Positions 6,001 through 62,627 of a DNA stretch of 64,000 nucleotides are shown piece by piece. A program made the position numbers and the translations under genes. The notes under the pieces are model-generated. The model did no database searches, had not been told where the DNA came from, and saw nothing but the letters and a program-made list of their open reading frames with translations. The stretch comes from Lawsonibacter faecis (lineage in GTDB: Bacteria; Bacillota; Clostridia; Oscillospirales; Oscillospiraceae), in the NCBI RefSeq assembly GCF_014287675.1, contig NZ_JACOPQ010000002.1:168649-232648 (forward strand), in the 5' to 3' direction. Each line of letters opens with the position of its first letter. The stretch's first letter is position 1.

Positions 6001-8653
6001 AGGAGGCGTTGCGGACGATGAGGCAGTTGTCCTTCTCCTCCGCCATATACTGCTGCAGCTTGTTCCAGTTGTCGTCGTGGTGGGTGGTCTGGAGCATCAT
6101 GCAGTCTTCCTTGAAGCCGTCCACACCCCAGAGGTCGGCATGGTCGGAGAACCACTTCACCGCCTCGGGGTTCTCCGCGTCAATAACGCCCACAGGGCCA
6201 CGGGGCTCGATGCCGCCGGTGGGGTACTTGGCGCTGACGGTGTACAGGCTGCCGTCGTCGTTGGTGAGGAAATAGCCCTTGTCCAGCGCCTCGTAGACGA
6301 AATCGCCGTCCACCGACGCATCCGATTTCCCGCCGTATCTGACGCCCTTGTAGCTTTCGGGCAGCTTGATGTGGTTGCGCAGGCCCACCAGGAGCTTCAT
6401 GCCGTTTTCGCTGAAAAACTGCTTGAGCCCGTCCGGGTCCGGGAAGCGGGGGTTGGGCAGGCCGTCCTTCCGCCCCGCCGGGTCCGCCGTGTCGTCCCAC
6501 ATGCCGAAGCTGGTGGTGGTTCCCTCCAGCCCCTTGCGGTCCCCCTTCCAGAAGCCGGAGCCGATGACGCCCCAGGTGAGGTTGTAGCCGCTCTCCAGGT
6601 AGTCGGTCAGGGTGTCCGTCACGGACGCCTGGTAGGCGTTCCAGCCCAGCGAGCCGAAGGCCTCCCACCCCAGGCCGAACATCTCGAAGTGGGGCTTGGC
6701 GTCCACATAGCCCAAAGCGTTGCGCACCTGCTTGTAGTCGCCGTAGATCTCCTCCATGGTGCCGAAGAAGTAGTAAAGCCCATCCACCTTTTTGGCCCGG
6801 CAGACCCCCAGGAGGGTCTGGTCCCCGGTGATGGCCACCCGCTTGTCGTCGCTCTCGAAGAGCACCTGGGCAAAGCCGAGCTGGGGCGCGACGGAGAAAT
6901 TGCTGATGAAGCGGGCGGTGCTGTTCTTGTTGGTGAAGTCCCCCTCCTTCAGGCGGTTGACGCCCACCACGTTGGAGGTCTCCCGCACGCCCATACCCGT
7001 GTTTCCGTGGGCGCCGTAGTCCCCCAGGCCGTACATATACTCGATGCCGCCGGCCAGCCGGGCGTCGATGACGTAGTAGTCTTCCGCAGGCTCCGGATCG
7101 GGCTGCGGCTCCTCCGTGCCGTCGGTCACTCTGCCGGAGCCGGCCACGGTCCAGTCGCCGCTCAAAGTCTCAGCCGCAAAATCGTCCCGGAAGAGCTCCC
7201 CGCCCGACGCGGAGGTCACCAGGAAGCTGTCCGTCAGGCTGGTGGAGTCCTTCGTGCGGACGCCGGCCAGGCCGGATGTGAAGGTGCCATCCGCCGCGGT
7301 GAGGACGGTCTCGCCGTCCAGGGAGCAGGTAATCTGTCCGTCCCTCATGGTGGCCGCCAGCACATAGCGCTTATCAAAGCCATAGGGCTTCGCCGCGGAT
7401 TGAACGACGGTCTCCACACCGTCCACGGTCTTGCAGAGGTACAGCGTCTCCTGCGCGCCGAAGCGGAAGTCGTAGTAATTGTTCTCGTCCTGATAGCCGA
7501 AAATCAGGCCGTGGGCGGTCTCCTCGTCCCCCTTGGCGAAGGACGTCCCCGCGCTGACGGTGTAGTCCCTCCAGTCCGCCTCGCCGGTCACGGCGGTGGA
7601 GAGGGAATTGCCCACCAGCTCCAGATAGCGCACTGCGGCGGGCGCACGGGTCAGCTCCAGGCGGTCCGCGCCCATCACATAGGCGAGGGACTTCCTGAGC
7701 TGCTCCACGTCGCCGCTCTCAAAGTCGTTCTCGTAGTAGACGGTCTGCCCGTCGTTGCTCGTCACCCGGAAGTCGTCGAACCAGGCGTCCATTTTGTCCG
7801 CCCGCAGGCCCGCCGTACCCGTCAGCAGCCCGGCGGACGCCGTTGTGTCCTCCACGTCCACCACAAGCTTACCGTCCACATAGCCCTGCAGCCGGCTGCC
7901 CGTGGAGACCAGCTTCAGGGCGTACCAGGTGCCTTTTTGAATATCGACGGGCGCGGAGACGCTGAAATCCACCGACGTACCGTCCTCATTCAGCCGCTTG
8001 AGCATCACCATGCCCGGCTTGATAAAGAAGAGGTGAAAGCCGTTTGCAGCGTTGAAATGGGAGTAGACGCCCGCCGAACGGGTGCCGTCCTCCGGCAGCT
8101 TTACCCTGGCCTCCACCGTATAGTCGCCGCCCGGCACAAGGCCGTCCGCCAGCTTCCAAACCGTGGCGTCCCCGCCGCTCAGGCTCCCCTTCACCAGCAG
8201 TGCGCCGCCTTCCCCGCCGGCGTCCAGCACCTCCGGCAGATTGGCCGCGGCCGGCTCCGCGCCGCCCGGCACGGGGAGAATTTCAAACTGCACATAGCGC
8301 TCGGACAAGTGGAGCTTTACCTCCGCCCTGCCGCCCTGCTCATTGGTCACGGCAAAGCAGGCGGTATCGCCCTCCATCCCAGTGTACTCGGACTCCGTCA
8401 CCGGGTAGGACACACCCCCGGCGCTGCCGAAGCATACGCCGGACTGGGTATGCGCGTCCACGATCACCGTGCCGTCCGGCCGGTAAAATCCATAGCGGAA
8501 GCCCGCCTTTTCAATCTGAATCGTGTAGTTCTCCCGCGCGATGGTCACGGTGGTCTCCGTCACGGTGACGCCCGGCTCCGCCCCCTGTGCGGGCAGCGCC
8601 AGCACTCCGAGCAGGATGGAGACCGTCAGCAGGATTGACAGCATTCTTTTCAT
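3008..8653 (-). CDS. Very large (1,881 aa) secreted glycoside hydrolase, GH31-like catalytic core, with lectin/Big-like modules, a coiled-coil spacer and three C-terminal SLH anchoring domains
   Basis: Signal peptide MKRMLSILLTVSILLGVLALPAQGA. GH31-like nucleophile region GVDGFKEDCMM and acid/base-like GTGADVHNP. Three SLH repeats at the C-terminus (FTDVGRNAWYHDAV..., FADVEAGLWYADAV..., FTDAGEVSGYAADAM...). RBS ggaggt lies 6 nt before the ATG. Confidence 0.7.
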   Translation of the reverse strand: MKRMLSILLTVSILLGVLALPAQGAEPGVTVTETTVTIARENYTIQIEKAGFRYGFYRPDGTVIVDAHTQSGVCFGSAGGVSYPVTESEYTGMEGDTACFAVTNEQGGRAEVKLHLSERYVQFEILPVPGGAEPAAANLPEVLDAGGEGGALLVKGSLSGGDATVWKLADGLVPGGDYTVEARVKLPEDGTRSAGVYSHFNAANGFHLFFIKPGMVMLKRLNEDGTSVDFSVSAPVDIQKGTWYALKLVSTGSRLQGYVDGKLVVDVEDTTASAGLLTGTAGLRADKMDAWFDDFRVTSNDGQTVYYENDFESGDVEQLRKSLAYVMGADRLELTRAPAAVRYLELVGNSLSTAVTGEADWRDYTVSAGTSFAKGDEETAHGLIFGYQDENNYYDFRFGAQETLYLCKTVDGVETVVQSAAKPYGFDKRYVLAATMRDGQITCSLDGETVLTAADGTFTSGLAGVRTKDSTSLTDSFLVTSASGGELFRDDFAAETLSGDWTVAGSGRVTDGTEEPQPDPEPAEDYYVIDARLAGGIEYMYGLGDYGAHGNTGMGVRETSNVVGVNRLKEGDFTNKNSTARFISNFSVAPQLGFAQVLFESDDKRVAITGDQTLLGVCRAKKVDGLYYFFGTMEEIYGDYKQVRNALGYVDAKPHFEMFGLGWEAFGSLGWNAYQASVTDTLTDYLESGYNLTWGVIGSGFWKGDRKGLEGTTTSFGMWDDTADPAGRKDGLPNPRFPDPDGLKQFFSENGMKLLVGLRNHIKLPESYKGVRYGGKSDASVDGDFVYEALDKGYFLTNDDGSLYTVSAKYPTGGIEPRGPVGVIDAENPEAVKWFSDHADLWGVDGFKEDCMMLQTTHHDDNWNKLQQYMAEEKDNCLIVRNASYCLPGDVLRINDANYGANNNSFNNSPDRMVINSLAYAASGQSNVYPDIIGGTGADVHNPANQNYIVRNAYMAALCPSQSVGVNVLKMDDQEKKDAAFKAINWHSTYAPYIYDAALKSYETGYPLSMTPLYIAYPEDDAVYDMINSEKRMFQWMLGESVLAAPLFGTDHLTAHSRDVYLPEGRWIQYDTGEVFEGPVTLKDREAPIDQMPAFIGGKGVLVGEDMEHKGSYFAEVFPVAGKGSVYEYTFVDGATKSTVTNRNDGWSVSTLEVYDVTAEETVEFEYNEVNGSIKFPFEAGHSYELRGGEGTGAVVSAALKAEKTELWIGERAGTALSARLDDGGFAELDGAAVRYRSSDEAVAAVDGAGVIDARAAGTAEITAEVTLEDRSGVIVTVVSNAVPVEVAASAVEILSPAAEVTEDFGGDLSGWTDHTGGYAVSGGTLTYLNTDGGARGTIVTAAGIGDDYTIEVDVTPTELIDKKTFGLTFRYQDSNNNYLFVYTPGTGIRFLKRADNEIKQNVTDSSFTMAAGQTYHFKAVIEGEHFVLYIDGDKILDVEDDGKSPALTTGPCGMYTSGQRAEYDNVSITSSVTAFPFALSGTARSGDRVALSFAGYEDTAALSRDGAWSYTVHYLPRGTHGVTARLLSRDGAVLAEAAGSIVVDTDAPVPDRTKLEKAVENAKKAELDGMTEASLEVYQAALDAAERLLKGQADQQTLDAAADALDAAVSALEREIAVWGDTAVTTARKKALRELREIYESMDPAGACACRKARLEQALSDGERAVRTAAAKSKVNAALEAARTALEAAVCPSDAFTDVGRNAWYHDAVDMMLERGYMEGVGAGRFDADGTLSRAQLVTILHRMAGSPAPKGGAEPFADVEAGLWYADAVAWAAENGVVAGDGRGSFRPEGAITREQIALILYRYTGAEQPGESGVLAPFTDAGEVSGYAADAMCWAVGLGLISGGAGADGRLCLMPGGAATRAQIAQILARHLAAQPGE

Positions 8654-8803
8654 CGTTTACCTCCCCGCGCCGTCCGGCGCTTCCTCAATGATTTGATACC
8701 GCCCTGATTGGAACCCCCAGGTCCTCTCTCCCCCTCTCCGGCCTCTGCGGACCGGGCGCATTTATCTGCACTGGCCCCATATGCACTGTACTATTTTTTC
8801 CAG

Positions 8804-8816
8804 ACAGTTTAACTGT
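8804..8816. promoter_or_regulatory. 13-bp perfect palindrome acagtttaactgt in the AT-rich region upstream of the GH31-SLH gene; putative regulator-binding site
   Basis: Direct reading of the sequence; it sits in an AT-rich intergenic stretch between the divergent GH and DegV genes. Confidence 0.3.
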
Positions 8817-9143
8817 TTCTTCCATCACTTTTGCAAAAAAGGACAAAATACCCCCTAAATTTGCAGGTATTGCTTTTTATTTTCCATTTTGTTTGTATGA
8901 GTATACCAAATACCGCCTCTGTTTGCCTTCATTTTTTGATACTGTATCTGGATAAATCAACACAGTTATAGAATTGTTTTCTCTTGATATCCGCCTCCGT
9001 CCGGCCGCGGCGGCCCGCTCCTCCGCCGGAGTCCTCCAAAGGCGGGGCTTGCTTCCCGGGAGATTTGGCATTACAATAAAGGATATCATACGATGGAATT
9101 CAAACCCCCGGCAGCGCCCCGCGCCGCCGGAAAGGAGCGCTTT

Positions 9144-19091: not shown

Positions 19092-20063
19092 TTACAGATT
19101 CTCCTGGGCCTCCATCTGCTGGCTCATGGCCTGGTCAAAGTGCTCGTTGATCTGCTTGGTGAACTCCAGCGCGGCGTTGTAGCCCATCTTCTTGTGGCGG
19201 TTGTTCATGGCCGCCACCTCGATGATCACCGCCAGATTCCGCCCGGGCTTCACCGGCACGGTGAGAGCGGGCACCTGGACGTCCAGGATGGTGGAATAGA
19301 GGTTCTCCAGGCCCAGGCGGTCGTACATGGCGCCGTCCTTCCACTGCTCCAGATTGACCACCAGATCGATGCTGGAGGCCTCCTTGATGGCGGACATGCC
19401 GAACAGCCGCCGCACGTCGATGACGCCGATGCCCCGCAGCTCGATATAGTGGCGGATGAGCTCCGGCGCGGTGCCGATGAGCCGCTTGTCGCTGGCCCGC
19501 TTGATCTCCACCGCGTCGTCTGCGATGAGGCGGTGGCCCCGCTTCACCAGCTCAATGGCGGTCTCGCTCTTGCCCACGCCGGACTCGCCCAGCAGGAGGA
19601 TGCCCTCGCCGTAGATCTCCACCAGCACGCCGTGGCGTGTGATGCGGGGGGACAGCTCGCTGCGCAGGTAGGCGATGAGCGCGCTCATAAAGGACGAGGT
19701 GGTCTCCTGGGTGCGCAGGATGGTGCGGTCGTACTTCTCCGCCATCTCCATGCACTCGGGGAAGGGCTCCATCTCCCGGGTGATCACCACGGCCGGGATA
19801 TCCTGGGCCAAAAGGCTGTCGAAGCAGGCCCGGCGGGCCTCCGCCGTCAGTCCCGACAGATAGGTGGTCTCCACCTTGCCCAGCACCTGGATGCGGGTGG
19901 GGTCGAAGTAGTCGAAAAAGCCGATGAGCTGAAGGCCGGGGCGGTTCACGTCCTCCGTTCGGATGGCGCGGCGCTCGTAGCCCCTGCCGCCCCGCAGCAC
20001 CTCCAGATTGAACTCCTGGATTAGTTTCTCCAGCGAAACGCTGTATAAGCTCTCCACAGGCAT
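19092..20063 (-). CDS. hprK: HPr kinase/phosphorylase
   Basis: P-loop GESGVGKSE and the HprK C-terminal domain. Start set at MPVESLY (alternative 20114). Confidence 0.85.
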   Translation of the reverse strand: MPVESLYSVSLEKLIQEFNLEVLRGGRGYERRAIRTEDVNRPGLQLIGFFDYFDPTRIQVLGKVETTYLSGLTAEARRACFDSLLAQDIPAVVITREMEPFPECMEMAEKYDRTILRTQETTSSFMSALIAYLRSELSPRITRHGVLVEIYGEGILLLGESGVGKSETAIELVKRGHRLIADDAVEIKRASDKRLIGTAPELIRHYIELRGIGVIDVRRLFGMSAIKEASSIDLVVNLEQWKDGAMYDRLGLENLYSTILDVQVPALTVPVKPGRNLAVIIEVAAMNNRHKKMGYNAALEFTKQINEHFDQAMSQQMEAQENL

Positions 20064-20243
20064 TCCCTCCCTGTTGTCATTAGTCCCCTTCAGTATACAC
20101 GCTCCGGCCTCCATTTACAATAAAAACCGTACCGCGCAGGCCCGGCCGGCCCCAATGCCGCCCCGTCCGCCGTCCCCCGCCAATCGGCCGCCCGCCCCCC
20201 ATGCAGCGCACAAAAATCTTCTGTCGCGTTTTGAAAAAAATAC

Positions 20244-20272
20244 TTGCTTTTTCTTTCTATTTCTGCTATCAT
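20244..20272 (+). promoter_or_regulatory. rpmB promoter
   Basis: -35 TTGCTT, 17-nt spacer, -10 TATCAT; followed by RBS gaggagg. Confidence 0.5.
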
Positions 20273-20322
20273 ATCACTCGATGCTTTGTAAGCAAACCTG
20301 ACGAGCGAGGAGGTTCAAGCGA

Positions 20323-20511
20323 ATGGCCAAATGTGAATTTTGCGATAAGGGCGTCGTATTCGGCATCCAGGTTTCCCACTCTCACCGCCGCTCTAATCGT
20401 CCCTGGAAGCCCAATGTGAAGCGCGTCAAGGCTATCGTGGACGGCGCGCCCAAGCACGTCCATGTGTGCACCAGATGCCTCCGTTCGGGTAAGGTCACCC
20501 GCGCCGTGTGA
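20323..20511 (+). CDS. rpmB: 50S ribosomal protein L28
   Basis: MAKCEFCDKGVVFGIQVSHSHRRSNRPWKPNVKRV is an L28 signature. Confidence 0.92.
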   Translation: MAKCEFCDKGVVFGIQVSHSHRRSNRPWKPNVKRVKAIVDGAPKHVHVCTRCLRSGKVTRAV

Positions 20512-20529
20512 TTGATAACGAACGCAAAT

Positions 20530-20572
20530 AAACCCCCAGAGCCGCGAAGGCTCTGGGGGTTTATTGTTTTTT
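20530..20572 (+). terminator. Rho-independent terminator of rpmB
   Basis: aaacccccagagcc-gcga-aggctctgggggttt followed by attgtttttt. Confidence 0.85.
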
Positions 20573-20691
20573 CACCGCGCCTTCATCCCCCAATGAGTTT
20601 CAGGGGCAGATTCACCGAATACCGGAGAGGCTTTCAGGCTACAATATTCCTTTATAAAGCAGCTTTTACAGCGCAAAAAGGAGACCGACTT

Positions 20692-21267
20692 ATGAAACAC
20701 CAGGTTTGGCTAATCCGGGCCCTCGCTTTGGGCGCCGTCTTTTTCCTTGCCGTTTTGCTGGCGAAGCCCATCGGCGTATCCACCCAGTTTTCCGTGCTCT
20801 CCGGCATTCTCCACAGCGCCGTGGACGAGACGGTTATCACGGAAAACCCCGAGCGCGGGACCGGGTATGAGAGCACAAACGCCTATTATGACAGGGGCGG
20901 CGGCAAGCTGGCGCAAGCCATCGCGAACCCTTGGAATTACGAGTTTGTATTTGTGTTGGCAATTCCGGTCGGCGCCTATGCCGCGTATGCGGCGAACGAT
21001 AAGAAGCGCCGCAGTCAGATGAGCGACGCCGGGCAGCTTCCGGGAGCACCACGCCAGAGCTTCTTGCGCCGGTACCTGCCGGCCTTTCTGGGCGGCTTCA
21101 TTATCCTGTACGGGGCAAGGATGGCGGACGGCTGCACCAGCGGCCACATGATGAGCGGGATGATGCAGGGAAGCGTCAGCGGTTATTTCTTCGCCGCCGC
21201 GGCTTTTGCCACGGCGATCCCCTCGGCGCTCATCGCCCGCCGGACGGCAATCAGGGGAGGGAAATAG
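20692..21267 (+). CDS. YeeE/YedE family protein (sulfur-compound transporter component), half-size, first of a pair
   Basis: Multi-TM protein with the conserved Cys motif (ADGCTSGH); RBS aaaggag. A homologous gene follows 1 nt after the stop. Confidence 0.7.
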   Translation: MKHQVWLIRALALGAVFFLAVLLAKPIGVSTQFSVLSGILHSAVDETVITENPERGTGYESTNAYYDRGGGKLAQAIANPWNYEFVFVLAIPVGAYAAYAANDKKRRSQMSDAGQLPGAPRQSFLRRYLPAFLGGFIILYGARMADGCTSGHMMSGMMQGSVSGYFFAAAAFATAIPSALIARRTAIRGGK

Positions 21268-58081: not shown

Positions 58082-58548
58082 TCAGCGGTTCAGGAGCCAG
58101 ACGCCGAAGTTGAGATAGGCCGCAAAGACCGACCACGCCAGATACGGAACCTGAAGCCAGGCGGCGGGCCTGTCGATTTTATAATAGGCCCGGATCATAA
58201 GCCCGACGGCGGCGGCCAGGGCGAGCAGCCACACAAAGGCGAAGAGGCGCAGCCCCAGAGCGAAGAACCACACGCTCCACAGGAGATGGCGAGCTGAAGG
58301 CCGTAGAGCGCAAGCGCCGCGCCGCGCCCCCTCCCGCGGGTCAGCCAGACCCGCGCCGCCCCGGCGCCCATGAGAATATACAAAATGCCCCAGACCACGG
58401 GAAAGGCCGCGGAGGGCGGCGTCAGCGGCGGCTTGGCGAGCCGCTCGTAGGCGGGCAGCCCTCTCATGACGGCAATGGCCGACAGTCCGCCGGCCGCAAG
58501 GGATATCAGGATAAACACAAGGTAGGGCATATATTTTTTCCATCTCAT
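58082..58548 (-). pseudogene. tspO: TspO/MBR family protein interrupted by a 1-nt frameshift
   Basis: N-terminal part (MRWKKYMPYLVFILISLAAGGL...ALALYGLQLAIS) is in the frame of ORF 58195..58548; C-terminal part (LWSVWFFALGL...WLQVPYLAWSVFAAYLNFGVWLLNR) is in the frame of ORF 58082..58558. The join is near 58278..58290 in a short C-run. Confidence 0.7.
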
Positions 58549-58946
58549 ACTTTATCACCCGTGGATAGTATGCCTGCCGGGAGGCGAAGTATGAACCCGA
58601 AGGTCCGCAAATCCTCCGCGTTCATTCGGCCCGGGCGGATGAGATGCAGGGCGCGGAACAAAAAAAGGGGGCCGCCCACGAAATCAACGTCTTTCGGTAA
58701 AGCGTTTTCCCGTTCATCTGTCATTCAGAACTGGGCCGCGCAGCGGCGGACCGAAGGGAACCGCGCGGCCAACGAAAGCGCGGCCCCACAGCCTGGCGCG
58801 CCCCGGGGCGGTCTCTCTTGCCCCTGCGGGACAATTCACCTCCCAGAATCCCTTTTCATAGGAGTAGCAGCCCCTGAATTTCCCTCTGAATCCTTTGGTC
58901 AGAGGTTTTTTGTCAAACGGAGGCGGCCCAGCGCGGCTGCGCCTTC

Positions 58947-61565
58947 CTATCCATCTGATTGGACGCTTTCGGCGATCTCGTCATTGCCGACGACTACAAT
59001 GTCGTCGCTGTCAAACTCACATTCCGCCAGCCCGGGGTTGATTCCCTTGTCCACCCGGTTGTATTTATTGTCCAAAGCGGTCAGGCATTCGTTTTTCCAG
59101 CTGATGCGGCCGCAGTAATCCGAAAACTTTTTAACAATGCTCGGCCCCAGCCTGTCGCTGTAGACGTCTGGCATCCGCAAAAGGAGCTGCGCCATATTCA
59201 GCAGCGCAGCATCCGATATTCCCTCACCGCTGGCCGAATGGTATTTTATTATCATATCCACGTACGTATGAACGGAATATGCAAAATAGCGGTAGGACGC
59301 CTTTTCAATCAGCTCCTCAATCTGCTTTTTTCCTATGTCAAAATAATACTGCGCATGCTGCGGCTCATTGTAAACGCCCCATACCCCCCAGGTCATATAA
59401 TTTTTGGCCTGCGCATGCTTTACATGGTAAGAGGTATTATTGCGAATCGCCGCCGCCTCGGAAAACGCATTGTTCGCCTCTTCAAAATGTTCCATGTCCC
59501 GGTGCAGGATACCCCGCTGCACCCAATAATAGCTTAGATGCTTACACACCTTCTCAATCTGCAAAAACAGGTTGAGCATCATGGAATCGTCGAGCTGCAA
59601 TTGTTTGCGCAGGCTTTTAATCTTAAGCAGCTTTTGGAATATTTCGTTTTGAACCGTCTCCTCCTGCTCGCTGAGGTTCCGGGCGAGGAAGCGCACGGCA
59701 AAGTTGATCCAGGACAAAAGCTCGTCCCGGTCCAGCTGCGTTTGCACCGACGCCCACAGAAGCCGGGAGCACCGTATGGAAATCCGGTCGTCCTGCAGGC
59801 GGATTAGGTCGGCGTAGTCCAGCGCGAATGTGTGCATGTCCACCTCCAGCCCGCAGCCGGAGAGAATATTGGAAAAAAGCGCTGCGGAAATCTCTGATAT
59901 GTCCAGAGCGCCAAACGTGCTGAGGATGAGAAAGGCCGTCTTGTTTTGGGACGCCTGCATGCGCTCAATCATGTCGGAAAAATAGCTGACAAACTGGCGC
60001 CCCTCCTGCGCCGTATAAAGCACGTCAATCAGGTCGTTCAGCTTCCGGATATAGTCGATGCACTCCTTCCGCGTGTTCCCGTAAAGCCGCAGTTTGTTCA
60101 GGTGATTTGTCTCCTCCAGCTTGTCGTAGATATTGGCCGCCTGGCGCCCGTCTTTTGTCTTTTCGGAAATATAGACCTCTTCCAGGCTCTCGTAGGAATC
60201 CAATAAATATTTCTTTGAATTGTGGTCCTGCAGACTGCCCGTACAGATAAAGATCAGGCTGCTGACGTTAGGCGGGCATTTATTGAGGATATCCTTTACA
60301 CGATTGTAGTAGTACGACATCCTCTCCGCCAGAATCGCCACCTTTGCCCCCTCGGGGAGGACCTCCAGATATTCGATAATCCGCTCCTGGTATGCGGTCG
60401 CGTTCATGGAATAGGGGAGGTTGAAGACGGAAAACTCATAGTCAAGCCGCATCAAATCCACGCCAAGCCGAATGGCCGCGCATGTTTTCCCCACATACGC
60501 CTCGCCATAAATCGCCACCAGATGATGCTTCCCTTTGGACGCGAGGGCCTTGGCCCTCCCGTCCACCTGCGGCCTTATGATATCAATATTCTTGATGAAG
60601 TCGTACGGCCGCGGCGGCGCCCCCATGTATAATTCGCTCATGTATTGATTGAGCTTGTTCTCATCCGCCGGGACCTGCTCGTCATAGAAAACCATTCCAT
60701 AATCGCGCATTTTCCGCCGCGCCTCGCCCACCGCTGCAATGCGGTCTTTGATCGTGGTCAAGAATTTCTGCGCCGTCCAGGGGATAAAGTGCATGTTCCG
60801 CTTTTCCTCAATTTTGCGCACAAGCTTCCGATTGTTGATCTTGGGCGAGACAAAGAAATAATGGGGCGGCTGGACAATTTCAACCATGGAATTGAGCTGC
60901 TGGATGATAAGCTGCAGGTCCTCCTCCTGAAATTCCGTCCCCAGAAAGACGACGTCATTGGTCAGGGAGAGATATCCGAACGTGTTCAGCGCCCAGCTGG
61001 GGATCGCTTCATAGTTTCTGTATTCGGCGGAGTCAAAGACGAAGCCCAAATCCGGTCTGTTTACAGAGCCGTGCAGCTTGTACAGCTCCAGCGAAGTCCC
61101 GTTGTGCAGCGTGGAGCATTGCTTGACATGGACAAGAGGGCGCTGCTTCGCCGGCACGTTTGAATAAATGGCCTCGACCAGATCGTCAATATTCAGTGTA
61201 AAAATATGCCGCCACGGGTAGTCCAGCAGGAACATATGAAAATCGCCGCTTAAGCAGCGGCAGCCCGAAAAGCGCTTTTGCAGGAAGCGGTCCCTCTGCT
61301 CCACTAGGTGTTCCATCTCAATGTTGTCGCAGGTTTTCTTCAAATCGGAGCGTTCGGCCCAGTAATCCTCCAAATCCTCCTTCTTAACCGTCTTGCTTTT
61401 GGCCAAGACTTCGTCAAACAGTTCTCCGGCCAACTCGCTGCCGGCCGGCAGCGGTTTGCCGTCCTGGCTCTGGATACCCTTGGAAAAGCCGGCGCCCAAA
61501 ACAAGGATTGGCGTGCGGATCGACATTCTATCAATCAAAAGCTGTTCATCGCCGACAAGATACAT
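58947..61565 (-). CDS. SIR2_2 (sirtuin-like, DHS-like NAD-binding) domain + P-loop NTPase + C-terminal helical-repeat protein; Avs5-like (SIR2-STAND) antiphage defence candidate
   Basis: SIR2_2 blocks ILVLGAGFSKG...PLP, IFTLNIDDLVE and LYKLHGS...FDSAEYRNY. Walker A GEAYVGKT. Long alpha-helical C-terminal region. Start at MYLVGDEQ after ggagga; alternatives are 61580 and 61670. The region has lower GC than its flanks. Confidence 0.7.
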   Translation of the reverse strand: MYLVGDEQLLIDRMSIRTPILVLGAGFSKGIQSQDGKPLPAGSELAGELFDEVLAKSKTVKKEDLEDYWAERSDLKKTCDNIEMEHLVEQRDRFLQKRFSGCRCLSGDFHMFLLDYPWRHIFTLNIDDLVEAIYSNVPAKQRPLVHVKQCSTLHNGTSLELYKLHGSVNRPDLGFVFDSAEYRNYEAIPSWALNTFGYLSLTNDVVFLGTEFQEEDLQLIIQQLNSMVEIVQPPHYFFVSPKINNRKLVRKIEEKRNMHFIPWTAQKFLTTIKDRIAAVGEARRKMRDYGMVFYDEQVPADENKLNQYMSELYMGAPPRPYDFIKNIDIIRPQVDGRAKALASKGKHHLVAIYGEAYVGKTCAAIRLGVDLMRLDYEFSVFNLPYSMNATAYQERIIEYLEVLPEGAKVAILAERMSYYYNRVKDILNKCPPNVSSLIFICTGSLQDHNSKKYLLDSYESLEEVYISEKTKDGRQAANIYDKLEETNHLNKLRLYGNTRKECIDYIRKLNDLIDVLYTAQEGRQFVSYFSDMIERMQASQNKTAFLILSTFGALDISEISAALFSNILSGCGLEVDMHTFALDYADLIRLQDDRISIRCSRLLWASVQTQLDRDELLSWINFAVRFLARNLSEQEETVQNEIFQKLLKIKSLRKQLQLDDSMMLNLFLQIEKVCKHLSYYWVQRGILHRDMEHFEEANNAFSEAAAIRNNTSYHVKHAQAKNYMTWGVWGVYNEPQHAQYYFDIGKKQIEELIEKASYRYFAYSVHTYVDMIIKYHSASGEGISDAALLNMAQLLLRMPDVYSDRLGPSIVKKFSDYCGRISWKNECLTALDNKYNRVDKGINPGLAECEFDSDDIVVVGNDEIAESVQSDG

Positions 61566-61859
61566 CAGAATTTCCTCCATATGTATATTTGAATACACGA
61601 ATGTGTCAAATATACATATTATACGACAGGGCAAATCATGTTGCAATCGAAATTTGGCGATTTTTCTCAAAAGGCGGAAATCAATTCACTGGTTATTTGT
61701 GCGTTATTCCGGCAGTACAAGGAAAGCTCTGCTCCCAAAAACAGAAAGCCCTTGCAATCACTAGCTTTTCTAGCAATTGCAAGGGCTCCAAGAGTGTAAC
61801 ACACAAACAAAATAGATGCCACGCAGTCTTGCCCAACCGTTTGAATAACTAAAAAATAA

Positions 61860-62347
61860 AGGGAGACGGTTTAACAATATTTTCAAGCTTAGAGAATACT
61901 GCCTCAATATATGGGAACAGTTCCCTGTTGTCAAATTGTAGTCGTTCCTCTACTGCATCTGCCTGGCAAACTAGCTTTGCACATCCTTAGCATTGCTTGG
62001 GTAGTCTGCTTCACCAAGCTTAATTTTATAATGACAACTTCGCTTTAACTCCTCCATCTCCGAATACTGGAAGCATCCGTAGTTAATGTTGCATGGGTAT
62101 TCCTTTTCAAACTGGACGTCCATATAAGTGGTCAAGCCAACCATAGGATGTACTTCGCACTGGCCAACAGTTCATCCACCGCCGCCCTGATCCATCTGAG
62201 GTTACCGGTTGGAGAGGGGATTCCCTTCTCGCAAAGCATATCCACTGCCTTGCCCAAGCTGGCTCCAACGAGGTAATAAGCAAAGATACTGCGGACGGTT
62301 TCCCCCTTTTCGTCACCCACCAAAATGTATCCATAGGGTATCCTCAT
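61860..62347 (-). pseudogene. Remnant of a large serine recombinase (recombinase-domain fragment)
   Basis: ORF 62132..62347 (-) VRSIFAYYLVGASLGKAVDMLCEKGIPSPTGNLRWIRAAVDELLASAKYI matches the Recombinase domain of large serine recombinases (IFxLYxxGxSxxxIAxxLNxxGIPxPxGxxWxxxxVxxIL). No intact resolvase catalytic domain. Low GC. Confidence 0.45.
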
Positions 62348-62484
62348 ATTTACCGCCTCACTTCCTTAAACATAAATAAAAGCAGGTTTGAATGAGAACC
62401 GACTCACTCAAATCTGCTTAGCAATTCTTCTGATATAGTGATGATAACTAATTTAGAACCCACACTTTAATGCAAATTCAACAC

Positions 62485-62530
62485 TAAATAGCAAAATCTG
62501 CGTATAACGATAGTTATACGCAGATTTTGT
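62485..62530 (-). terminator. Terminator downstream of tRNA-Ser
   Basis: aaaatctgcgtataac-tatc-gttatacgcagatttt perfect stem + U-run. Confidence 0.8.
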
Positions 62531-62536
62531 CTGCTT

Positions 62537-62627
62537 TGGCGGAGAGAGAGGGATTCGAACCCTCGGTACGCTATCAACGTACACACGATTTCCAATCGTG
62601 CGCCTTCGTCCACTCAGCCATCTCTCC
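62537..62627 (-). tRNA. tRNA-Ser (anticodon GGA), class II with a long variable arm, encoded CCA
   Basis: Minus strand GGAGAGAUGGCUGAGUGGACGAAGGCGCACGAUUGGAAAUCGUG...GGUUCGAAUCCCUCUCUCUCCGCCA; acceptor stem GGAGAGA/UCUCUCC. Confidence 0.85.

What the first reader, a model, noticed from the sequence alone, without database searches (positions are those of the whole stretch)
58900..62536. Low-GC genomic islet integrated next to tRNA-Ser(GGA), with a decayed large serine recombinase
From about 58.9 to 62.5 kb the GC content drops to roughly 45-50%, against about 65% in the flanks, with intergenic segments near 35%. The segment begins right after the 3' end and terminator of tRNA-Ser and contains only the SIR2-STAND gene plus a recombinase-domain fragment (62132..62347) with no intact catalytic domain. 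The flanking genes, tspO on one side and an AIM24-family gene on the other, have normal GC. This looks like an old integrative element whose mobility functions have eroded while the defence cargo was retained.
Basis: partly seen in the sequence, partly recalled or inferred. Interest (0 to 1): 0.55.

Follow-up and report, generated by a model that had tools for sequence, protein, structure and literature searches.

The report
Decayed tRNA-end defence cassette with SIR2-STAND
The low-GC segment is a real 3.65-kb insertion behind tRNA-Ser that carries an intact SIR2-type anti-phage gene, and its "recombinase fragment" is a broken copy of a small conserved gene that marks a widespread, apparently undescribed family of mobile defence-gene cassettes in gut Clostridia.

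Summary
Window 58880..62534 has 49.5% GC against 65.4% upstream. It sits directly behind tRNA-Ser(GGA) and is missing from one conspecific contig (L097), which keeps the native tRNA terminator.

The 71-aa "recombinase fragment" is not the stump of a large serine recombinase (LSR) that decayed at this locus. Its closest relatives are stand-alone ~116-aa proteins made of the LSR DNA-binding "recombinase domain" (RD) alone. 78 of 80 copies are intact, and median dN/dS is 0.11.

These genes follow a conserved ~185-nt leader. The leader begins with a covarying hairpin that abuts tRNA-CCA+NN at 12 or more different tRNAs. The full unit is: left end, RD gene, KilA-N gene, variable defence cargo (Gabija, Lamassu, Olokun and others), right end. 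One 3.2-kb cassette occurs at 96-98% identity at nine loci with different left flanks. The right-end motif also lies just 3' of LSR gene triads in ICE-like loci.

The window copy keeps the left end, leader and two thirds of a frameshifted RD gene. It has lost the KilA-N gene, the right end and 62 bp of host flank, so it is probably immobile. Its 872-aa SIR2-STAND payload is intact.

Mobilisation in trans by LSRs is inferred, not shown.

The parts
62537..62627 (-). tRNA-Ser(GGA). Its encoded 3' CCA (62537-62539) is the left target arm (B) of the insertion.
   Evidence: ARAGORN; Rfam tRNA 56.8 bits.
62535..62536 (-). Junction dinucleotide AA (TT on the + strand) between tRNA-CCA and the element. 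It is also present in the empty site, so it is the putative crossover core.
   Evidence: Window vs L097 junctions. All 29 tRNA-linked junctions in the family read CCA+NN (AA 21, TT 5, TA 3)+GTAGACA.
62492..62534 (-). Left end (LE) of the cassette: GCAGACAAAATCTGCGTATAACTATCGTTATACGCAGATTTTG. It forms a perfect 17-bp hairpin and now serves as the terminator behind the tRNA.
   Evidence: Inverted repeat I2; terminator scan. The sequence is homologous to the LE of L108 and the L115-L194 loci. The hairpin covaries: 7 of 17 pairs have compensatory changes and 0 of 500 shuffles reach the observed score.
62348..62491 (-). Conserved leader, with a second hairpin plus T-run at 62387..62412 and an RBS (GGAAGTGAGG) before the RD start codon.
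   Evidence: About 80% identical to the leader in L108, which lies behind tRNA-Met. Terminator-like site. tRNA-end-to-ATG spacing is 183-190 nt for 14 of the 15 tRNA-adjacent loci (176 in L119), and 189 here.
62132..62347 (-). Broken RD-only gene, 71-aa ORF. It lacks 6 codons (18 bp) relative to L107/P0068 and stops after a 1-bp deletion near 62148.
   Evidence: PF07508 E 7.6e-8. Homologs P0068-P0107. DNA alignments with L107, L108 and type-B contigs.
61971..62147 (-). Frameshifted continuation of the RD gene (57-aa ORF). Homology to the RD family ends at 62079, so this is the breakpoint with unrelated DNA.
   Evidence: tblastn places RD residues 74-96 at 62147..62079. The ORF is continuous in L098 and L107.
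61566..62077 (-). AT-rich spacer with no homolog outside conspecific contigs. It holds a 20-bp-stem terminator-like hairpin (61745..61789), a promoter-like site for the SIR2 gene (61618..61646, TTGCAA-17-TATAAT) and a 14-bp palindrome (61579-61592 / 61606-61619).
   Evidence: blastn coverage; scans.
58947..61565 (-). Intact SIR2-STAND gene (872 aa), the defence payload. It has GAGFS (24-28), N125 (TLNID), H165 (KLHGS), Walker A GEAYVGKT (354-361) and a helical/TPR-like C-terminal half.
   Evidence: Pfam; PADLOC Avs5/ThsA/Dsr2 N-terminal hits; motifs. An identical protein was read on 24 contigs. It equals WP_186918435.1 of Lawsonibacter faecis. Homologs carry the nSTAND Pfam domains PF25199 and PF20720.
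58880..58946 (-). 3' tail of the insert, with the right junction between 58880 and 58879. There is no canonical right-end (RE) motif. A hairpin plus T-run (58883..58911) is oriented for the opposite strand.
   Evidence: Junction alignment with L097, compared with canonical RE sequences. In L097 a different 62 bp, including the native tRNA terminator, occupy this place.

Best explanation
Window 58880..62534 is a degenerate and probably immobilised copy of a family of small integrative defence cassettes from gut Clostridia. These cassettes insert exactly between the encoded CCA end of a tRNA gene and its terminator.

An intact cassette has this order:
1. A left end (NN|GTAGACAAAACC...) with a conserved hairpin that replaces the displaced tRNA terminator.
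2. A ~185-nt leader.
3. A 116-aa gene encoding only the DNA-binding recombinase domain (RD) of large serine recombinases.
4. A coiled-coil/KilA-N gene.
5. Variable anti-phage cargo.
6. A right end (hairpin ... GCATCTTTTTTGTCAACACnnGACA|NN).

The cassettes encode no catalytic recombinase. The junctions share only CA+NN. The same right-end motif lies just downstream of LSR gene triads in ICE-like loci, and cassettes stack in tandem there. The inference is that they are non-autonomous units moved in trans by those LSRs, much like CIME or pseudo-SCC elements. The RD and KilA-N proteins would then be DNA-binding accessory or regulatory factors.

In this genome (Lawsonibacter faecis / Pseudoflavonifractor lineage) the left junction is canonical. 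The RD gene is a pseudogene. The KilA-N gene, the right end and 62 bp of host flank are gone. What remains functional is an 872-aa SIR2-STAND gene with its own promoter. By homology it is predicted to sense phage infection through its NTPase/repeat module and deplete NAD+ through its SIR2 domain.

Shown here: the insertion, family membership of the left module, erosion of that module, and intactness of the payload. Inferred: trans-mobilisation by LSRs, the role of RD/KilA-N, and NADase-based defence.
For: Insertion:
- Empty-site contig L097 reads tRNA-CCA|AA|AAGAAAGACATTCC(terminator). The window reads CCA|AA|GCAGACAAAATC....
- Census of 23 conspecific contigs: 18 like the window, 4 with a variant left end, 1 empty.

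Family:
- The nearest homologs of the fragment are ~116-aa PF07508-only proteins.
- 80 metagenome loci were retrieved. 78 have intact 113-117-codon ORFs, and median dN/dS is 0.11 over 1137 pairs.
- The AF2 model matches the RD of the SPbeta and LI integrases, TMq 0.62-0.74.
- Leader and LE are conserved and abut 12 or more different tRNAs at CCA+NN.
- The LE hairpin covaries.
- The KilA-N partner is present in 64 of 80 loci.
- Cargo includes GajA/B, LmuA/B, OloA/B, PDC-M38, FRG, UvrD and OLD proteins. About 100 clusters are found among 134 cargo ORFs.

Mobility:
- One 3.19-kb cassette is 96-98.5% identical at nine loci: behind tRNA-Thr, tRNA-Leu, tRNA-Gly and tRNA-Arg, behind tRNA fragments, and inside arrays. 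Wherever the contig reaches the right end, the cassette ends at the RE motif and is followed by a different terminator hairpin, presumably the native one.
- In L177 a cassette splits an LSR gene exactly between ...FKN and IMNEYYARD.

Link to LSRs:
- The RE lies 160-2000 bp 3' of LSR triads in L130, L134, L135 and L151.
- These triads include their own catalytic-domain-less RD protein.

Window decay:
- RD homology covers only 62347..62079. There is no KilA-N remnant and no RE.
- L107 carries a less decayed 131-aa version upstream of the same SIR2 gene.

Payload:
-.
Against: - No recombination event, circular intermediate or helper LSR was observed, and the 64-kb window contains no LSR.
- Only one empty site was found, so the insertion polarity rests on the presence of a native-looking terminator in L097.
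- LE and RE arms show no clear dyad symmetry of the kind typical of LSR att sites.
- One recombinase recognising a dozen different tRNA ends would be unusually permissive.
- More distant SIR2-STAND homologs (51-67% identity) are not in RD cassettes. The SIR2 gene may therefore have joined the remnant by a secondary rearrangement rather than arriving as original cargo.
- STAND and Avs5 assignments are weak at the sequence level: nSTAND3 E 0.045, and the Avs5 model matches only residues 26-174.
Confidence: 0.7

Rival explanations
1. A classical integrative element encoding a full-length large serine recombinase integrated next to tRNA-Ser. The recombinase later lost its catalytic and zinc-ribbon domains at this locus.
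For: - The PF07508 match has no catalytic domain.
- The ORF is visibly damaged relative to L107.
- Composition is foreign.
Against: - The closest relatives are 116-aa stand-alone genes with their own RBS and leader, intact in 78 of 80 loci, with dN/dS 0.11.
- Co-resident full-length LSRs are only 33-42% identical to them.
- The same leader abuts many different tRNAs at a fixed 183-190 nt, leaving no space for a 140-aa catalytic domain.
- The truncated state therefore predates arrival at this locus.
Confidence: 0.07
2. The RD + KilA-N pair is not a mobility module. It is a conserved transcriptional regulator or sensor pair placed upstream of diverse defence systems, comparable to the WYL/BrxR-type regulators found in front of many defence systems (own knowledge). 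The units would spread mainly by homologous recombination within hotspots. The tRNA association would reflect a few ancient insertions.
For: - Both proteins are DNA-binding folds without catalytic residues.
- The leader carries promoter-like and attenuator-like elements.
- Cargo turns over behind a constant 5' module.
- Recombinase genes co-transcribed with defence genes but dispensable for defence are described in PMC13552941.
Against: - A near-identical cassette sits at nine loci with unrelated left flanks and sharp junctions at both ends.
- One insertion lies inside an LSR ORF with exact restoration of the reading frame across the insert.
- These observations require site-specific insertion, not only homologous exchange.
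- A regulatory role for RD/KilA-N is compatible with the best explanation and is not excluded.
Confidence: 0.15
3. The segment is ancestral to the species, and the low GC reflects only the AT-rich composition of a fast-evolving defence gene. L097 would then represent a deletion.
For: 22 of 23 conspecific contigs carry it. Gene order on both sides is otherwise constant.
Against: - L097 does not simply lack the segment. It has 62 bp of different sequence forming a proper tRNA terminator, the same CCA|AA|A-rich+hairpin layout seen at the right flanks of cassettes elsewhere.
- The left 460 bp are homologous to mobile cassettes found behind other tRNAs in other taxa.
Confidence: 0.05

Closest known systems
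CIMEs (cis-mobilizable elements) and tandem accretion of ICE/IME derivatives; by analogy, pseudo-SCC cassettes moved by CcrAB large serine recombinases
   Same: Both are small integrated units without their own integrase that keep both attachment-site halves. Both stack in tandem next to elements that do encode the recombinase, and both carry accessory cargo. The CIME definition and accretion model are from PMC5704250. The SCC/CcrAB comparison is from my own knowledge.
   Different: The target here is the CCA end of many different tRNA genes, not one gene. Each unit keeps a conserved, selected RD-only gene plus a KilA-N gene. The cargo is anti-phage defence. Trans-mobilisation is not demonstrated. 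The window copy has lost its right end, so it does not meet even the CIME definition.
Large serine recombinase integrative elements (SPbeta SprA, Listeria LI integrase, Tn4451 TnpX)
   Same: The small protein has the RD fold of these enzymes. Junctions share only about 2 nt, as in serine-recombinase att sites (2-bp identity for Tn4451, PMC5704250).
   Different: There is no resolvase catalytic domain, no zinc ribbon and no coiled coil, either in the window or in intact family members. tRNA 3' ends are not typical LSR targets (own knowledge).
Small serine recombinases as markers of defence loci (RADS; PMC13552941)
   Same: A recombinase-family gene sits immediately upstream of, and may be co-transcribed with, highly diverse defence systems, and can be used as bait to find them.
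   Different: RADS proteins are catalytic resolvase/invertase-type enzymes of the Gin/EF_B0058 type. The protein here is the non-catalytic RD of large serine recombinases, paired with a KilA-N protein and bounded by defined element ends.
Avs5 / SIR2-STAND antiviral proteins (EfAvs5; PMC11897194, abstract seen)
   Same: An N-terminal SIR2 effector with conserved Asn and His, a central P-loop NTPase, a C-terminal helical repeat region, and a single-gene system.
   Different: The PADLOC Avs5 model matches only residues 26-174. No sequence-level hit to solved Avs5 structures was found. The NTPase assignment is weak for this protein.
Integron gene cassettes carrying defence genes (own knowledge)
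   Same: Arrays of promoter-proximal, single-function cassettes lie next to a recombinase platform, each delimited by a structured recombination site, with very high cargo diversity.
   Different: There is no tyrosine IntI and no attC core (GTTRRRY). Each unit carries two conserved genes of its own. Chromosomal copies sit behind tRNA genes.

Membership tests
Large serine recombinase (integrase) | N-terminal resolvase catalytic domain with serine nucleophile (PF00239) | tested here: not met
   Pfam finds only PF07508. Only 189 nt lie between the ORF start and the tRNA, and that stretch is a conserved non-coding leader. tblastn with LSRs hits only the RD region.
Large serine recombinase (integrase) | Recombinase domain (RD, PF07508) fold | tested here: met
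   E 7.6e-8 for the window ORF. The family model matches 9dxh/9y66 and 4kis RD with TMq 0.62-0.74.
Large serine recombinase (integrase) | Zinc-ribbon domain with coiled coil (PF13408) | tested here: not met
   No hit in the window ORFs or in 116-aa family members. By contrast, the LSR fragment in L130 shows PF13408.
Classical tRNA-integrated genomic island (tyrosine integrase type) | Direct repeat of the tRNA 3' segment at the distal end, and an integrase gene | tested here: not met
   No copy of the tRNA 3' end with up to 3 mismatches anywhere in the window. No relevant direct repeat. No integrase ORF.
RD/KilA-N defence cassette family (defined here) | LE hairpin directly after tRNA-CCA+NN, followed by the conserved leader | tested here: met
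   CCA|AA|GCAGACAAAATCTGCG... The window aligns with the L108/L166-type LE.
RD/KilA-N defence cassette family (defined here) | Intact ~116-aa RD-only gene | tested here: not met
   A 71-aa ORF with an 18-bp deletion and a 1-bp frameshift. Homology ends at residue ~96.
RD/KilA-N defence cassette family (defined here) | KilA-N partner gene downstream of RD | tested here: not met
   tblastn with three G2 proteins finds nothing in the insert.
RD/KilA-N defence cassette family (defined here) | Right-end motif (hairpin ... GCATCTTTT(T/C)TGT(C/A)AACAC..GACA|NN) followed by the native tRNA terminator | tested here: not met
   The right junction at 58880 lacks the motif. 62 bp of flank, including the native terminator, are absent.
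Avs5 / SIR2-STAND | SIR2 effector domain with catalytic Asn/His | tested here: met
   SIR2_2 E 2.7e-13. TLN125ID and KLH165GS motifs. ThsA/Sir2 PDB hits.
Avs5 / SIR2-STAND | STAND/NOD NTPase module and C-terminal sensor | tested here: inconclusive
   Walker A at 354-361. nSTAND3 E 0.045 and TPR_2 E 0.011. Homologs P0007 and P0043 carry PF25199/PF20720. The Avs5 HMM covers only residues 26-174.
Avs5 / SIR2-STAND | Phage-triggered NAD+ depletion and protection | not testable with these tools
   Requires expression, phage challenge and NAD+ measurement.
CIME / pseudo-SCC-like non-autonomous element | Both att halves retained, no own recombinase, mobilised by a helper | tested here: inconclusive
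   Intact family members have LE and RE and no catalytic gene. Helper dependence is untested. The window copy has only the left half.

The most novel reading that the evidence does not exclude
Gut Clostridia may harbour an integron-like or SCC-like cassette system driven by large serine recombinases. ICE-borne LSR triads would capture, stack and redistribute single defence systems as 3-6-kb cassettes. Each cassette would be tagged by a domesticated catalytic-domain-less RD protein plus a KilA-N protein, and would dock either at the ICE end or at the CCA end of almost any tRNA gene. The window would hold a fossil of one such cassette.
Probability: 0.35. Interest if true: 0.8.

Novelty: new variant of a known kind. 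Interest (0 to 1): 0.6.

Why it matters
At the level of this genome the result is modest. A tRNA-adjacent defence islet is confirmed, dated as an insertion, and shown to be immobilised while its SIR2-STAND gene stays intact in about 95% of the conspecific contigs sampled.

The wider value is the marker. A conserved leader plus a 116-aa RD-only gene delimits cassettes with sharp ends and very diverse cargo. Known systems such as Gabija, Lamassu, Olokun and PDC-M38 sit beside many unannotated genes, for example a recurrent 606-aa protein.

That gives a practical bait for defence-gene discovery in under-studied gut Firmicutes. It also offers a testable case of non-autonomous cassettes that may be moved by large serine recombinases to tRNA CCA ends. 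Such permissive, tRNA-end-directed integration could interest genome engineers.

Tried and rejected
- Related species through AIM24 in genome contigs: best 78% identity, with no tRNA-Ser/TspO synteny, so uninformative for att sites.
- Contexts of more distant SIR2-STAND homologs (P0002, P0005, P0007, P0009, P0024): other defence neighbourhoods with no RD module, so the cargo-module link is lineage-specific.
- Rfam on 58-64 kb: only the tRNA reaches threshold, and there is no known RNA family in the leader.
- Plasmid collection: only distant full-length recombinases.
- Phage collection: one 5.2-kb 'Bacteriophage sp.' record (L202). It proved to be a tRNA-adjacent two-cassette array, not a circular form.
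- Viral contigs: one partial hit.
- IS200/IS605-like single-strand transposition: considered because of the subterminal hairpins, and rejected. The LE and RE hairpins are unrelated to each other and there is no HUH gene.
- Integron attC: rejected. There is no GTTRRRY core and no IntI.
- A split recombinase gene reconstituted on excision: rejected for the window, because nothing resolvase-like lies at the right end.
- A 13-nt resemblance between the window's right tail (TTTTTTGTCAAAC, opposite strand) and the RE core: left unexplained, possibly chance.
- Literature searches found no description of this cassette family. The library is incomplete, so this is not proof of novelty.

Full report
**Observation**

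The composition drop is real and is the most extreme in the window. 58900..62536 is 49.5% GC against 65.4% for the preceding 58.9 kb. No other 3.6-kb stretch is as low. The only tRNA in the window, tRNA-Ser(GGA), lies at 62537..62627 on the minus strand, so its 3' end faces the segment.

The segment holds one long gene, 58947..61565(-). It encodes 872 aa with a SIR2_2 domain (E 2.7e-13), a Walker A motif and weak nSTAND3 and TPR signals. It also holds a 71-aa ORF, 62132..62347(-), matching the first half of Pfam 'Recombinase' PF07508 (E 7.6e-8). AIM24 and TspO flank it with host-like GC.

**Is it an insertion?**

Exact-protein look-ups with the flanking AIM24 and response-regulator proteins returned conspecific contigs. 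Of the 23 read, 22 carry the segment and one (L097) has AIM24, tRNA-Ser and TspO directly adjacent.

Alignment gives flanks of 98.7% and 96.4% identity and places the insert at 58880..62534, 3655 bp. In L097 the tRNA is followed by CCA|AA|AAGAAAGACATTCCTTCGGGAATGTCTTTCTTTTT, a normal terminator, within 62 bp that the window lacks. In the window the tRNA is followed by CCA|AA|GCAGACAAAATCTGCG....

So the segment is an insertion combined with a 62-bp loss of flank. The exact SIR2 protein is WP_186918435.1 of Lawsonibacter faecis and also occurs in Pseudoflavonifractor isolates.

**The 'recombinase fragment'**

A type-B conspecific haplotype (L098) reads straight through from the end of the 71-aa ORF into the 57-aa ORF 61971..62144. 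L107 carries the whole gene as one 131-aa ORF. The window therefore has a 1-bp deletion near 62148.

Searching the repaired 125-aa sequence did not return large serine recombinases. It returned about 40 clusters of small proteins, mostly 116 aa, with PF07508 only and 54-82% identity. One of them (P0068, 131 aa) sits upstream of the same SIR2 gene on L107 and lacks both the 18-bp deletion and the frameshift of the window copy.

A profile of the family retrieved 80 metagenome loci. 78 carry an intact 113-117-codon ORF, and median pairwise dN/dS is 0.11. Against 1.84 billion representatives, the best 150 matches are almost all 55-200-aa proteins whose match starts at residue 1. An AlphaFold model (pLDDT 77.6) superposes on the recombinase domain of the SPbeta and Listeria LI integrases, TMq 0.62-0.74. 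Full-length LSRs on the same contigs are only 33-42% identical.

The small RD-only protein is therefore a selected gene in its own right. The window holds a broken copy of it.

**A cassette family with defined ends**

The DNA between the tRNA and the RD start codon is about 80% identical between the window (tRNA-Ser) and L108 (tRNA-Met). Homology begins immediately after CCA+2 nt.

Across the 80 loci the gene is preceded by the same ~185-nt leader, which starts with GTAGACAAAACCTGCGTGTAACGATAGTTATACGCAGGTTTTG. All 29 tRNA-linked junctions read CCA+NN+GTAGACA, with NN being AA 21 times, TT 5 and TA 3. They involve Ser, Met, Thr, Gly, Leu (three isoacceptors), Cys, Arg, Val and Ala genes or their displaced 3' fragments. 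The hairpin is maintained by compensatory changes: 7 of 17 pairs, 89.6% of cells paired, and 0 of 500 shuffles reach the observed score.

Downstream of RD, 64 of 80 loci encode a ~190-213-aa protein with a KilA-N domain. Highly variable cargo follows, about 100 clusters among 134 ORFs. It includes GajA/GajB, LmuA/LmuB, OloA/OloB, PDC-M38A/B, FRG-domain proteins, UvrD-type helicases and OLD-type ATPases.

The unit ends with a hairpin of the CCGTTGC...GCAACGG type followed by GCATCTTTT(T/C)TGT(C/A)AACAC..GACA|NN.

**Evidence of movement**

One 3.19-kb cassette, with a 606-aa cargo gene, is 96-98.5% identical in nine loci. Its left flanks are tRNA-Thr, tRNA-Leu, tRNA-Gly, tRNA-Arg, tRNA fragments or a preceding cassette. 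Wherever the contig reaches the right end, the right flank is a different terminator hairpin, presumably the native one.

In L177 a 5.7-kb unit interrupts a full-length LSR gene exactly between codons ...FKN and IMNEYYARD. The target reads TTCAAAA|AT|ATCATGAAC. The two junctions of a unit share only CA plus two nucleotides, with no longer direct repeat. This matches the 2-bp crossover of serine recombinases (PMC5704250). It does not match tyrosine-integrase islands.

**Who moves them? (inference)**

The cassettes encode no catalytic recombinase. In L130, L134, L135 and L151 the right-end motif lies 160-2000 bp downstream of triads of LSR genes, and cassettes follow as RE|NN|LE tandems. These triads themselves contain a catalytic-domain-less RD protein of 253-282 aa. 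L141 continues from a tRNA-adjacent cassette into Fic and DUF3991/Toprim genes, which I recall as typical of conjugative elements.

The simplest reading is that cassettes carry the two ends of an LSR-type ICE and are mobilised in trans, as CIMEs or pseudo-SCC elements are. RD and KilA-N would be DNA-binding accessory or regulatory proteins.

This is not shown. No circle junction or helper was observed. The att arms lack clear dyad symmetry, and a recombinase accepting a dozen tRNA ends would be unusually permissive. A purely regulatory role for RD/KilA-N is a live alternative for those two proteins. It does not explain the junctions.

**State of the window copy**

Homology to the family covers only 62534..62079, that is the LE, the leader and RD residues 1-96. 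62077..61566 matches nothing outside conspecific contigs. There is no KilA-N remnant and no right-end motif, and 62 bp of host flank are missing.

Four of 23 conspecific contigs carry a further variant (type B). In it the LE, the leader and the 5' part of RD are replaced by about 250 bp that start with a different hairpin. The left module is thus decaying in the population, and without a right end the unit should no longer be excisable.

The SIR2-STAND ORF, in contrast, is identical on the 24 contigs read from many different samples. It has a promoter-like site at 61618..61646 and an RBS. It keeps the GAGFS, TLN125ID and KLH165GS motifs and Walker A.

Homologs at 51-67% identity stand alone in other defence neighbourhoods. 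The gene therefore works as a single-gene system, and it may have been joined to the cassette remnant secondarily.

By analogy with Avs5, ThsA and DSR proteins, it most likely depletes NAD+ on phage sensing. PADLOC matches are limited to the N-terminal SIR2 region, with E-values from 7.9e-13 to 4.5e-6, so I do not file it as a bona fide Avs5.

**Comparison with what is known**

The islet works like a decayed CIME or pseudo-SCC-type unit with defence cargo. The concept of a recombinase-family gene marking defence loci exists (RADS, PMC13552941), but it concerns catalytic small serine recombinases. Five full-text searches found no description of RD-only/KilA-N cassettes at tRNA CCA ends. The library is incomplete, so prior description cannot be excluded.

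**Verdict**

- The window feature itself is an ordinary fossil. The family it reveals is the interesting part.

Noticed in passing
window 58082..58558 (-), deletion near 58287: tspO is a pseudogene here. A 4-bp deletion (CTGA) splits it into two frames. The same deletion is in L095 and in other contigs with a 111-aa call, whereas L092, L097 and others have an intact 150-aa gene. It is a real polymorphism, not a sequencing error.
   Followed up: yes
L091, L093, L094, L098 (conspecific), equivalent to window 62165..62534: A type-B haplotype. The LE, the leader and the 5' part of the RD gene are replaced by about 250 bp. The replacement begins right after tRNA-CCA-AA with a hairpin, GAAACCCGTTGCAATTGCTG..CAGTGATTGCAACGGGTTTC, plus a T-run. 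It resembles both the cassette right-end hairpins and the window hairpin at 61745..61789. Its origin is unresolved.
   Followed up: partly
window 61579..61619: A perfect 14-bp inverted repeat (ATATGTATATTTGA / TCAAATATACATAT) spans the region between the predicted -10 box and the RBS of the SIR2-STAND gene. It could be an operator or a 5'-UTR structure. Type-B contigs carry three substitutions in this stretch.
   Followed up: no
window 58883..58911: Inside the insert's right tail there is a hairpin plus T-run oriented for the + strand, the wrong way for the SIR2 gene. Its T-run and following bases (TTTTTTGTCAAAC) resemble the cassette right-end core in inverted orientation. This may be chance or a relic of a rearrangement.
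   Followed up: partly
L177 7218..12885; also L160, L175, and L117, L120, L192: Cassettes are inserted inside large-serine-recombinase genes. In L177, L160 and L175 the site is after ...DFTPF(K/L)N of the catalytic domain. In L117, L120 and L192 the insertion is in inverse orientation within the RD-coding part (...FENTHEAI...). In L140 and L146 the target is an IS3-like transposase gene. Recombinase genes seem to be recurrent targets.
   Followed up: partly
P0110/P0111 (Pseudoflavonifractor phocaeensis): In one isolate the same SIR2-STAND gene is annotated as two proteins (463 + 418 aa). The payload is apparently disrupted in some strains.
   Followed up: no
L094 / L101 19732..20678 (conspecific), between the VanY-like and B12-radical-SAM genes (window about 53.5 kb): One conspecific contig carries an extra two-gene insert (581 aa with HATPase_c_3, plus 147 aa) that is absent from the window and the other contigs. 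This is a second variable spot, possibly another defence pair.
   Followed up: no
P0126 (847 aa), P0181 (940 aa), P0185 (801 aa): A few long proteins match the RD-only profile in 5-8 separate stretches. They may be tandem RD repeats or mis-called ORFs across cassette arrays.
   Followed up: no
L138 3068..4888 and ten other loci: The commonest cargo is a 606-aa protein (MRYEYFKIIDPAFVQSLLDGNL...). It has no PADLOC hit and only a weak TPR signal, and it is carried by the recently mobile 3.19-kb cassette. It is a candidate uncharacterised defence gene.
   Followed up: partly
window 20001..21000 and 8001..9000: Two further local GC dips (0.55 and 0.58) occur elsewhere in the window. They were not examined.
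   Followed up: no
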